DNA from: the human T2T-CHM13v2.0 reference genome, Homo sapiens
Strand: one strand, 5' to 3'
Assembly (NCBI RefSeq): GCF_009914755.1
Contig: NC_060927.1
Length of the DNA: 64,000 nt
In this document: positions 21,962 to 23,226 of the stretch, one piece after another
Position numbering within the stretch: position 1 is the stretch's first letter
How the letters are laid out: every line of letters starts with the position of its first letter
Made by a program: the position numbers and the translations under genes
Notes under the pieces: model-generated
What the model was told of the DNA's origin: nothing
Seen by the model: the letters and a program-made list of their open reading frames with translations, nothing else
The model's database searches: none

Positions 21962-22044
21962 GTCTCGATCTCCTGGCCTCATGATCCGCCCGCCTTGGCC
22001 TCCCAAGGTGCTGGGATTGCAGGCGTGAGCCACTGTGCCCGGCC
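21962..22044 (-). mobile_element. Alu 5' fragment (~83 nt) abutting the LTR end
   Basis: GTCTCGATCTCCTGGCCTCATGATCCGCCCGCC...GTGCCCGGCC is the reverse complement of the Alu start. The rest of this Alu is absent from the locus. Confidence 0.9.
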
Positions 22045-22129
22045 AACACTCTCTTAAATTAATCACTTTGAATAGTAAAGTAAAAAAAAAAAAAAAAAAA
22101 TCACCAGCTCATATTAAAAAGCCATTTAT

Positions 22130-22432
22130 GGGCCGGGCACGGTGGCTCATGCCTGTGGTCCTGGGACTTTGGGAGGCCGAGATGGGCGGATCACGAGGTC
22201 AAGAGATCGAGACCATCCTGGCCAACACGGTGAAGCCCCGTGTCTACTAAAAATACAAAAATTAACCAGGTGTGGTGGCGCGTGCCTGTAGTCTCAGCTA
22301 CTCTGGAGGCTGAGGCAGGAGAATCGCTTGAACCCAGGAGGTGGAGGTTGCAGTGAGCCAAGATCACACCACTGCACTCCAGCCTGGTGACAGAGCAAGA
22401 TTCCGTCTCAAAAAAAAAAAAAAAAAAAAAAA
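22130..22432 (+). mobile_element. Full-length Alu (AluS-type) inside the transduced segment
   Basis: GGCCGGGCACGGTGGCTC... dimer with A tail. Confidence 0.93.
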
Positions 22433-23226
22433 CTCATTCATAATCCGACCTTTACCTCCTTTACCTAAATATGTTCAGCTTCACCTGTCCCTCATTCCAG
22501 CCTCTTATTTCTCAGCTTTACCGAACTTATATCAATATTTCTCAGAGATGAATGAATTTTCATGCTTTCATGTCTTTTTTCTTCTCACCCAGAATGCTCC
22601 TTATTTTCTCTCCGAGTCGTGGACTCTATGCCTGCTCATGTGTCAAGACGTAGCTCAACTTCCAACTTCACTAAAATTATCAACCTCACGGTGGGTTCTC
22701 AGCTAGAGTTAGGCCTTCCCATAGCTCTAAATCTCTAGCACTTAACAGACAACATTTTAGATAGTTGGTTTTGCATTCATTGTCTTTATTGGAGTGAAAG
22801 CTTTCTAAAGAAAAGGAAGGTACCTAAATATTTAACAGATGTATCAATACCTAAGACTAGACTATGCAAGTGGCTCTCCTGGGTGAATTAATAAATACTC
22901 AAATAAATACTTGAATGAAGAGAAGAGCCAAGGAGCACCCACGCCAGAATATTCGAGAAAAGTATTTGATAAGATCATTTTGCAAGAGTTTATGAGGTAT
23001 ATCCAGGAAACACATATTAAATGCTATTTGACCACAGATTCCATAAAATTATGCAGAGAAAAAAAGAATTATAGATCGAGAACTTCTCCAACAATTTCTG
23101 ATGATCTGGTGAAGAAATCAATGTCCACAGTCATGAAATAATAAAAAAGAATTCAATATATGACAATTATGAAATTAATTATGAAATTAATAAAATCTTA
23201 TTAAATTATGAAATTAAAAAAAAAAA

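What the first reader, a model, noticed from the sequence alone, without database searches (positions are those of the whole stretch)
21962..23226. About 1.25 kb 3' transduction: foreign genomic DNA carried along by the HERV-H RNA
Between the LTR end and the poly(A) lie an Alu fragment, an A-run, a full Alu, a decayed L2-like segment (~22490-22920) and unique AT-rich DNA. Ancient L2-like sequence inside an insert that splits a younger L1 must have come from elsewhere. The LTR's own AATAAA (21897-21902) is intact but was bypassed in favour of AATAAA at 23189. 3' transduction is established for L1 and SVA. ERV-driven transduction via L1 is much less familiar and would be a route for duplicating genomic sequence.
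Basis: partly seen in the sequence, partly recalled or inferred. Interest (0 to 1): 0.82.

Follow-up and report, generated by a model that had tools for sequence, protein, structure and literature searches.

The report
HERV-H retrocopy carrying 1.26 kb host flank
A read-through RNA from a HERV-H provirus on chromosome 17 was copied into chromosome 3 by LINE-1 machinery and took 1.26 kb of the provirus's downstream neighbourhood with it; this is a clear but unsurprising example of how retroelements duplicate host DNA.

Summary
Window 16486-23226 is one L1-type insertion into an old L1. It starts at the LTR7 transcription start with no U3. It runs through HERV-H and a complete 3' LTR, then 1,256 bp of non-HERV DNA (21962-23217), then a short A tail. 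It is flanked by a perfect 14-bp target-site duplication.

The unique part has exactly one paralogue in the genome, on C17 at about 35.13 Mb. That paralogue lies directly downstream of a full HERV-H provirus with two LTRs and a 5-bp proviral duplication inside an Alu. Similarity stops at the poly(A) junction. Divergence is 2.5% (1.6% at non-CpG sites), the same in the HERV-H part and the flank.

Two additions:
- Six A-to-G changes specific to the retrocopy sit in the 76-bp duplex formed by the two transduced inverted Alus. This is a frozen ADAR-editing signature.
- At least 31 other loci carry LTR7 R followed directly by poly(A). HERV-H RNA is therefore a recurrent L1 substrate.

The L2-like label was not testable. 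The mechanism is ordinary, and interest is moderate.

The parts
16100..16485 (+). Left part of the interrupted old L1 (ORF2 3' region); only this stretch was tested, and the L1 extends further left
   Evidence: Matches 40 scored L1 copies genome-wide at 75-84% identity. It is colinear with the right flank on 10 of 11 fetched copies.
16472..16485 (+). Left copy of the 14-bp target-site duplication GAAAATGCAAATGA
   Evidence: family D15: 100% identical to 23227-23240. The junction was read.
16486..16488 (+). GGG at the 5' junction; 1-3 G are not templated by the source, which reads GC before TGACTC
   Evidence: Alignment. That extra 5' G are typical of full-length L1-mediated copies of capped RNA is recalled knowledge, not tested.
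16489..16593 (+). R-U5 of the 5' LTR7; U3 is absent. It starts about 30 nt after the TATAAAA box seen in the source.
   Evidence: It is 95% identical to 21857-21961 (D4). The canonical C2 retrocopy starts at the same place.
16594..21527 (+). HERV-H internal region (primer-binding site onward), unspliced and non-coding
   Evidence: Colinear with the C17 provirus: 124 mismatches in 4,922 aligned bases. The longest stop-to-stop frame in the insert is 165 codons.
21528..21961 (+). Complete 3' LTR7 (U3-R-U5) with an intact AATAAA at 21897-21902 that was bypassed
   Evidence: 8 mismatches in 421 bases against the C17 3' LTR.
21962..22046 (-). Transduced: 5' part of an antisense Alu, the half of the Alu into which the source provirus integrated
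   Evidence: The other half of this Alu lies upstream of the C17 5' LTR, with GTCTC duplicated.
22047..22130 (+). Transduced: unique spacer with an A-run at 22082-22100
   Evidence: A 96-nt query across the spacer has only two genomic matches, the window and C17.
22131..22432 (+). Transduced: full-length sense Alu with a 23-A tail; it was already present in the source
   Evidence: 7 mismatches in 276 bases. It forms a 76-bp duplex with the antisense fragment.
22433..23217 (+). Transduced: unique AT-rich flank containing the poly(A) signal that was used (AATAAA at 23189-23194)
   Evidence: One paralogue only, at 99% identity. 11 mismatches in 785 bases. Similarity ends at 23217.
23218..23226 (+). 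Untemplated poly(A) tail (9 A; the run of 11 starts at 23216)
   Evidence: the source continues TAAAATCTGAATC instead of the A run.
23227..23240 (+). Right copy of the 14-bp target-site duplication
   Evidence: D15.
23227..23700 (+). Right part of the interrupted old L1 (stretch tested)

Best explanation
A HERV-H provirus integrated into an Alu on chromosome 17 (T2T contig C17, about 35.13 Mb). It was transcribed from its 5' LTR in the germ line or early embryo. One transcript ignored the AATAAA in the 3' LTR and ran 1,256 nt into host DNA. It was cleaved about 23 nt after a host AATAAA and polyadenylated. In the nucleus the two inverted Alus in this 3' extension paired into a long duplex, and ADAR edited several adenosines. 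The L1 ORF2 protein then used the poly(A) tail to prime reverse transcription at a nick inside an old L1 on chromosome 3. The result is a full-length retrocopy with this layout: cap-derived G, R-U5, internal region, complete 3' LTR, host flank, A tail, all within a 14-bp target-site duplication.

Shown here: the structure, the source locus, the direction of copying and the boundaries.

Inferred: that L1 was the enzyme (from the hallmarks), the ADAR step (from the A-to-G pattern), and the date. The date is roughly 8-14 million years, using 2.5% divergence and recalled primate substitution rates.
For: 1. Boundaries. The 5' end lies at the LTR7 transcription start with no U3. The 3' end is an untemplated A run placed 23 nt after AATAAA. 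A perfect 14-bp duplication flanks the whole insert, which sits in a single interrupted L1.

2. Source. There is one paralogue (2 of 2 candidates scored; one search likewise). It is colinear over 6,690 aligned bases with 166 mismatches. At C17 the LTR and the flank are contiguous, and both Alus and the A-run are already present there.

3. Direction. C17 has a full 5' LTR and a 5-bp proviral duplication, GTCTC, that splits an Alu. C17 continues past the poly(A) site, and the window does not.

4. One event. Non-CpG divergence is the same in the HERV-H part (83 of 5,180, 1.60%) and in the flank (19 of 1,185, 1.60%).

5. RNA intermediate. A-to-G changes affect 9 of 35 source A sites in the Alu duplex arms, against 27 of 1,684 elsewhere (Fisher p = 1.3e-8). 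With only the 6 polarised sites counted, p = 3.4e-5. All six sites are A-U paired in the predicted duplex (MFE -166.2 kcal/mol, z = -17.65).

6. Precedent in the same genome. 31 distinct loci have LTR7 R followed by at least 12 A, against 0 in the reversed control. One of them was verified end to end: it has the same 5' start and a 13-bp duplication.
Against: - The inferred nick site (bottom strand TTTTC/C) is T-rich but is not the textbook TTTT/AA.
- LTR-LTR divergence at the source (8 of 420, 1.9%) is slightly lower than source-copy divergence (2.5%), although the provirus must be older. This is within sampling error, or it may reflect LTR homogenisation.
- The diagnostic sites in the short 5' R-U5 are mixed: 1 agrees with the C17 5' LTR, 1 agrees with the 3' LTR, and 1 agrees with neither.
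- One of the six A-to-G sites (21976) is only weakly polarised (6 A against 4 G among other Alus) and has a disfavoured 5' G.
- No outgroup genome could be examined, so the date and the empty site are inferred.
- The antisense Alu fragment is a divergence hot spot on both lineages (10 of 85). That includes a GGG-to-ACA cluster on the C17 side, which editing does not explain.
Confidence: 0.96

Rival explanations
1. DNA-level segmental duplication or gene conversion copied about 6.7 kb from chromosome 17 to chromosome 3.
For: Two colinear copies at 97.5% identity.
Against: The copy starts exactly at the LTR transcription start and lacks U3. It ends at a poly(A) site with untemplated A and has an L1-type 14-bp duplication. 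A-to-G changes are clustered on the transcribed strand in a dsRNA-forming region.
Confidence: 0.01
2. The insert is a chimeric retrocopy. L1 reverse transcriptase began on an unrelated polyadenylated host RNA (22433-23217 or more) and switched template to a HERV-H RNA.
For: Template-switch chimeras are a known L1 product (recalled). The junction lies at an element end.
Against: At C17 the LTR end and all 1,256 bp are contiguous genomic DNA, in the same order and with the same Alus. One transcript therefore suffices. The junction is at the end of U5, not at the R poly(A) site where a HERV-H RNA would end.
Confidence: 0.01
3. A canonical HERV-H insertion ended at the LTR, and the 1.26 kb accumulated afterwards through later Alu and other insertions.
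For: Alus often insert into A-rich tails. The full Alu has an imperfect possible duplication of its own (read).
Against: The same Alu fragment, spacer, full Alu and unique DNA lie downstream of the source provirus. The L1 target only resumes after 23226, with the duplication enclosing everything.
Confidence: 0.01
4. The direction is reversed: the chromosome 3 copy is the parent and the chromosome 17 copy is derived.
For: None beyond the similarity.
Against: C17 has the U3 that the window lacks, a 5-bp integrase-type duplication inside an Alu, no A tail, and continuous flank beyond the poly(A) site.
Confidence: 0.005
5. The clustered A-to-G changes in the Alu pair are ordinary mutation or Alu-Alu gene conversion, not frozen ADAR editing. 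This is a rival to the side claim only.
For: The same 85-bp fragment also carries excess changes on the C17 lineage. One site is poorly polarised.
Against: Six of the window-derived changes there are A-to-G on the transcribed strand. All six are paired in the predicted duplex, three of them adjacent across the helix (22019 with 22157 and 22158). Five of the six have a 5' U or A. The enrichment gives p = 3.4e-5. A-to-G and G-to-A are balanced elsewhere (25 against 21; 2 against 1).
Confidence: 0.15

Closest known systems
HERV-W processed pseudogenes (L1-mediated retrocopies of ERV RNA)
   Same: They start at R without U3, carry a poly(A) tail and an L1-type duplication, and are promoterless at the 5' end. 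Sources: passages of PMC5016936 and the abstract of PMC5537654. Pavlicek et al. 2002 is recalled only and is not held.
   Different: The family is HERV-H, not HERV-W. The 3' end is not R-poly(A): it is a full U3-R-U5 LTR plus 1,256 bp of host DNA. [quoted passage not shown]
L1 3' transduction
   Same: The element's weak poly(A) signal is bypassed and a downstream host signal is used. The flank is carried between the element end and the A tail, the duplication encloses both, and the flank identifies the source locus (definition recalled; all features seen).
   Different: The vehicle is a non-autonomous ERV transcript mobilised in trans, not an L1 acting in cis.
SVA 3' transduction
   Same: A non-autonomous RNA polymerase II transcript is mobilised by L1 in trans and carries downstream host DNA. 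PMC12593883 and PMC3287187 were seen only in the search listing.
   Different: The vehicle is an LTR provirus of about 5.5 kb rather than an SVA. Only one offspring with this flank exists.
Retrocopies of read-through or chimeric LTR7-HERVH long non-coding transcripts
   Same: An LTR7-driven transcript extends into host DNA with a host poly(A) site. Such transcripts are well known (PMC3580499 seen in the listing only; passages of PMC12228294).
   Different: Here the transcript is unspliced and has been fixed as DNA elsewhere. No annotation or expression data for the C17 locus were available.
ADAR hyper-editing of inverted Alu pairs
   Same: Clustered A-to-G changes on the transcribed strand lie within a long Alu-Alu duplex, with 5' U or A preferred (neighbour preference recalled; pattern seen).
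   Different: The signature is seen as fixed genomic differences between a retrocopy and its source, not in RNA.

Membership tests
L1-mediated processed pseudogene / retrocopy | The 5' end lies at the transcription start and lacks the promoter | tested here: met
   It starts at (G)CTGACTC, about 30 nt after TATAAAA in the source LTR. U3 is absent.
L1-mediated processed pseudogene / retrocopy | An untemplated poly(A) tail lies at the 3' end, downstream of a poly(A) signal | tested here: met
   Nine A are absent from the source. AATAAA at 23189-23194 ends 23 nt upstream.
L1-mediated processed pseudogene / retrocopy | A target-site duplication of about 7-20 bp flanks the whole insert | tested here: met
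   Perfect 14-bp repeat (D15). The flanks are one L1 (10 of 11 copies).
L1-mediated processed pseudogene / retrocopy | The target resembles the L1 endonuclease site TTTT/AA | tested here: inconclusive
   The bottom strand reads ...ATTTTC/CTG. It is T-rich but not canonical (read; consensus recalled).
L1-mediated processed pseudogene / retrocopy | A parent locus exists elsewhere in the genome | tested here: met
   C17:35129839-35136555.
3' transduction (as defined for L1 and SVA) | Non-element DNA lies between the element's 3' end and the poly(A) tail, inside the duplication | tested here: met
   21962-23217.
3' transduction (as defined for L1 and SVA) | That DNA is the immediate downstream flank of a source element | tested here: met
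   It is contiguous with the 3' LTR end at C17 35135311/35135312.
3' transduction (as defined for L1 and SVA) | The vehicle is an L1 or SVA | tested here: not met
   The vehicle is a HERV-H provirus transcript. It works like a transduction but belongs to neither family.
Canonical ERV processed pseudogene (HERV-W type: R-U5...U3-R-An) | The 3' end lies at the R poly(A) site | tested here: not met
   U5 is complete and 1,256 bp follow. In contrast, 7 of 9 other LTR7-poly(A) loci examined end at the window-equivalent position 21923.
Integrase-mediated provirus | Two complete LTRs and a 4-6 bp duplication | tested here: not met
   The window copy lacks the 5' U3 and has a 14-bp duplication. The C17 source meets both criteria.
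ADAR-edited inverted Alu duplex (footprint) | Clustered A-to-G changes on the transcribed strand, confined to a long dsRNA | tested here: met
   Six polarised sites, all paired, p = 3.4e-5. Direct RNA evidence is not available.
L2 (for 22490-22920) | Similarity to an L2 consensus | not testable with these tools
   No repeat library is held. There is no other match in the window and only the C17 copy in the genome.

The most novel reading that the evidence does not exclude
HERV-H RNA is abundant in the early embryo, where L1 is also active, and it is a recurrent L1 substrate that has gone largely uncatalogued: at least 31 R-poly(A) loci exist in this genome. This runs against the published statement that HERV-W is the only HERV group mobilised by L1. 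Read-through HERV-H transcripts can therefore transduce host DNA. This locus would be the first documented ERV-driven 3' transduction with an identified source, and it also preserves a frozen record of ADAR editing of the read-through RNA.
Probability: 0.35. Interest if true: 0.55.

Novelty: new member of a known kind. Interest (0 to 1): 0.4.

Why it matters
The locus shows, with both parent and offspring in hand, that an endogenous retrovirus can act like L1 or SVA as a vehicle for copying adjacent host DNA to a new chromosome. It needs no retroviral proteins and borrows the L1 machinery.

The transduced flank tags the source. It therefore identifies a particular provirus that was transcribed, with read-through, in the germ line or early embryo of an ape ancestor.

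The retrocopy also delivers a complete LTR7 followed by 1.26 kb and a working poly(A) signal to a new site about 17 kb beyond the 3' end of PLD1. That is a potential ready-made transcription unit, though no expression data were available.

The side observation that LTR7 R-poly(A) retrocopies are not rare suggests that counts of HERV-H 'proviruses' include L1-made copies. This matters for age estimates and for locus-specific expression studies. Vargiu et al. state that they did not separate the two classes (PMC4724089, passage).

Tried and rejected
- Pavlicek et al. 2002 (PMC155283) is not held. Whether it mentions HERV-H retrocopies could not be checked.
- Eight literature searches and passages from nine papers gave no report of HERV-H processed pseudogenes or of ERV 3' transduction. 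The library lacks most subscription journals, and no supplements were opened.
Only nine loci with 1.5-kb flanks were classified and one was verified end to end.
- My guess for the 5' end of a second copy (L048) hit nothing.
- Two of the nine loci (L021, L039) did not show HERV-H running up to the tail.
- The L2 label could not be tested (one search found no related sequence in the window).
- LTR diagnostic sites were too few to show independently that the 5' R-U5 derives from the source's 5' LTR.
- The LTR7 subfamily was not assigned, because no reference is held.
- Template switching, DNA duplication, later accretion and reversed direction were considered and rejected on the source arrangement.

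Full report
**Anatomy**

Reading 15300-17300 and 21400-23700 shows a single insertion inside an old L1.

- On the left, L1 ORF2-like sequence ends ...catcagGAAAATGCAAATGA. It is followed by GGG and then TGACTCTCTTTT..., the start of the R region of an LTR7. R-U5 continues to ...atgaaa at 16593, and the HERV-H primer-binding site follows.
- No U3 precedes the R region.
- On the right, a complete LTR7 (21528-21961, starting TGTCAGG and ending GCGCATGAAA) is followed by non-HERV DNA up to 23217.
- Then come a run of A (23216-23226), GAAAATGCAAATGA again, and L1 sequence.
- The repeat finder reports the 14-mer at 16472-16485 and 23227-23240 as a perfect direct repeat (D15). It also reports the 5' R-U5 as 95% identical to the R-U5 of the 3' LTR (D4).

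To show that the two flanks are one L1, I searched the genome with the left flank (40 scored matches, 75-84% identical apart from the window itself). I then aligned both flanks to 11 fetched L1 copies.
- In 10 of 11 copies the right flank maps downstream of the left flank on the same strand. L008 had no right-flank hit.
- In L009 the left flank ends at subject base 1501 and the right flank begins at 1510. The two overlap by about the length of the duplication.

The genome holding the window was searchable. The unique segment 22433-23215 gave two candidates, both scored: the window itself, and C17:35135771-35136553 at 99% identity over 783 of 783 bases. A 96-nt query across the spacer between the two Alus also found only these two places.

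I fetched C17:35126001-35140000 and compared it with the window.
- Window 16489-23217 is colinear with C17 35129839-35136555.
- The C17 locus has, in addition, a 5' LTR with U3 (35129510-35129942). The window's 3' LTR aligns to it at 97.2%.
- The retrocopy's first templated base lies about 30 nt after the TATAAAA of that 5' LTR.
- At the 3' end, the antisense Alu fragment, the spacer with its A-run, the full Alu and the unique DNA all lie in the same order directly after the C17 3' LTR.
- Similarity ends after ...ATTATGAAATTAA. There the window has A's, and C17 continues TAAAATCTGAATC.
- The AATAAA at window 23189-23194 ends 23 nt before that point.

**Direction of copying**

The C17 provirus is flanked by GTCTC on both sides. 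Its upstream flank is the remaining part of the same antisense Alu...ccgggatgGTCTC|tgtcagg upstream, and gaaa|GTCTCgatctcc downstream. That is an integrase-type insertion into an Alu.

The window copy lacks U3, carries an untemplated tail and has a 14-bp duplication. C17 is therefore the parent and the window copy is the offspring.

**One event, and its date**

Differences number 166 in 6,690 aligned bases (2.48%). After removing CpG-context columns they number 102 in 6,365 (1.60%).
- The HERV-H part gives 83 of 5,180.
- The transduced part gives 19 of 1,185. Both are 1.60%.
- The 785-bp unique tail alone gives 11 of 785 (8 of 767 at non-CpG sites). This is lower, but the counts are small.

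The equal divergence argues that the HERV-H and the flank arrived together. Using recalled hominoid substitution rates (about 1.1e-9 per site per year), 2.5% corresponds to roughly 8-14 million years. That falls between the recalled human-gorilla and human-orangutan genome divergences. No primate genome was available, so this is a prediction, not a result.

The two C17 LTRs differ at 8 of 420 sites.
- At 5 of those 8 sites the window's 3' LTR has the C17 3'-LTR state.
- At 2 sites (both CpG) it has the 5'-LTR state.
- At 1 site it has neither.

The short 5' R-U5 is uninformative: one site goes each way and one matches neither LTR. The C17 3' LTR has since lost 13 bp that the window copy retains.

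**A frozen RNA-editing signature**

The antisense Alu fragment is a divergence hot spot (10 of 85). The substitution matrix shows source A to window G at 9 of the 18 substitutions in 21962-22432. Elsewhere A-to-G and G-to-A are balanced (25 against 21 in HERV-H; 2 against 1 in the unique tail).

I polarised these sites with 11-12 other Alu matches in the window.
- Window-derived A-to-G: 22007 (9 of 9 others have A), 22019 (8 of 9), 22157, 22158 and 22163 (7 of 7 each), and 21976 (6 A against 4 G, weak).
- C17-derived: 21987, 21992, 22013-22015 (GGG to ACA) and 22188.

Folding the source RNA pairs the antisense fragment with the left arm of the sense Alu. The free energy is -166.2 kcal/mol, z = -17.65, and 0 of 200 shuffles fold as well. 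The stem has 76 pairs, and all six A-to-G sites are A-U paired within it.
- Position 22019 lies next to the partners of 22157 and 22158 across the helix.
- The 5' neighbours of the six sites are G, A, U, U, A, U.

A-to-G affects 9 of 35 source A sites in the arms against 27 of 1,684 elsewhere (Fisher p = 1.3e-8). Counting only the six polarised sites gives p = 3.4e-5.

This is what ADAR editing of the read-through RNA would leave in a retrocopy. It independently shows that both Alus were on the RNA. The excess of changes on the C17 side of the same fragment is not explained by editing.

**Context: HERV-H and L1**

[quoted passage not shown] I therefore asked whether canonical HERV-H retrocopies exist.
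- A pattern made of a 16-base LTR7 R motif, 8-32 free bases, a non-A base and 12 A found 32 matches at 31 distinct loci. The reversed control found 0. One search adds one more locus on C13.
- Nine distinct loci came with 1.5-kb flanks. In 7 of them, HERV-H and/or LTR7 sequence runs colinearly up to the window-equivalent position 21923, followed by the tail. One of the 7 (L036) is a weak match at 70% identity covering the LTR only. L021 and L039 do not show this.
- For the C2 copy at about 199.73 Mb I fetched the predicted 5' end. It starts at GCTGACTCTG, the same transcription start, and is flanked by a 13-bp duplication, GAAATGCACTTGT.

HERV-H RNA has therefore been retrocopied repeatedly. 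The window copy differs in that it read through the LTR.

Eight searches of the held library found no description of HERV-H processed pseudogenes or of ERV-driven 3' transduction. Vargiu et al. say processed pseudogenes were not separated from proviruses in their catalogue (PMC4724089, passage). Pavlicek et al. 2002 could not be read. Subscription journals are mostly missing from the library, so 'not in print' is not established.

**Other points**

- The insert has no stop-to-stop frame longer than 165 codons and is non-coding.
- The hub's table annotates no gene there. The insert lies about 17 kb beyond the 3' end of PLD1.
- The 5' end of the retrocopy has no promoter. Its 3' LTR is complete and is followed by the transduced 1.26 kb with its poly(A) signal. 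Whether that unit is transcribed is unknown.
- The 'L2-like' description of 22490-22920 could not be tested.

**Verdict**

The mechanism is the ordinary one: L1 trans-mobilisation of a polyadenylated read-through transcript. I file it as a new member of a known kind, with a well-resolved parent-offspring pair, a neat editing footprint, and a side lead on the number of HERV-H retrocopies.

Noticed in passing
Own genome, 31 distinct loci listed (for example C2:199736671-199736709 and C6:81691186-81691224), plus C13:24229112: LTR7 R is followed directly by at least 12 A at the canonical cleavage site (0 in the reversed control). In 7 of 9 loci examined, HERV-H and/or LTR7 sequence runs up to the tail. 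One copy (C2, about 199.73 Mb) is a verified full-length processed pseudogene with a 13-bp duplication. This is at odds with the statement that HERV-W is the sole HERV group mobilised by L1.
   Followed up: partly
window 21976, 22007, 22019, 22157, 22158, 22163: Six retrocopy-specific A-to-G changes, all paired in the 76-bp duplex of the transduced inverted Alus. This is a frozen ADAR-editing signature (p = 3.4e-5).
   Followed up: yes
L004 (C17) 35135363-35135365, equivalent to window 22013-22015: The source copy carries a clustered GGG-to-ACA change in the antisense Alu fragment. It adds to a local excess of changes on the source lineage as well. It is unexplained and may be a multi-nucleotide mutation or Alu gene conversion.
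   Followed up: no
C17 3' LTR, between 35135220 and 35135221 (equivalent to window 21858-21870): The source's 3' LTR has a 13-bp deletion at the start of R (GACTCTCTTTTCG). Both the retrocopy and the source's own 5' LTR retain these bases, so the deletion happened after the copy was made.
   Followed up: partly
window 16489-23217 against C17: Source T to window C (39) outnumbers source C to window T (23), while A/G changes are nearly balanced outside the Alu pair. This may reflect faster CpG decay at the source provirus. It was not analysed further.
   Followed up: no
window 22888-22910 and 23137-23145: Further AATAAA hexamers inside the transduced segment, and two long A-runs (22082-22100 and 22410-22432), were also passed over by the transcript that was retrocopied.
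   Followed up: no
window 17019-17411: Tandem repeats of 61-64 nt (3 copies) and about 21 nt (6 copies) in the HERV-H leader region (D1, D3, D5). The source differs by a 21-base gap in the window stretch 17234-17412 that contains the 21-nt repeats.
   Followed up: no
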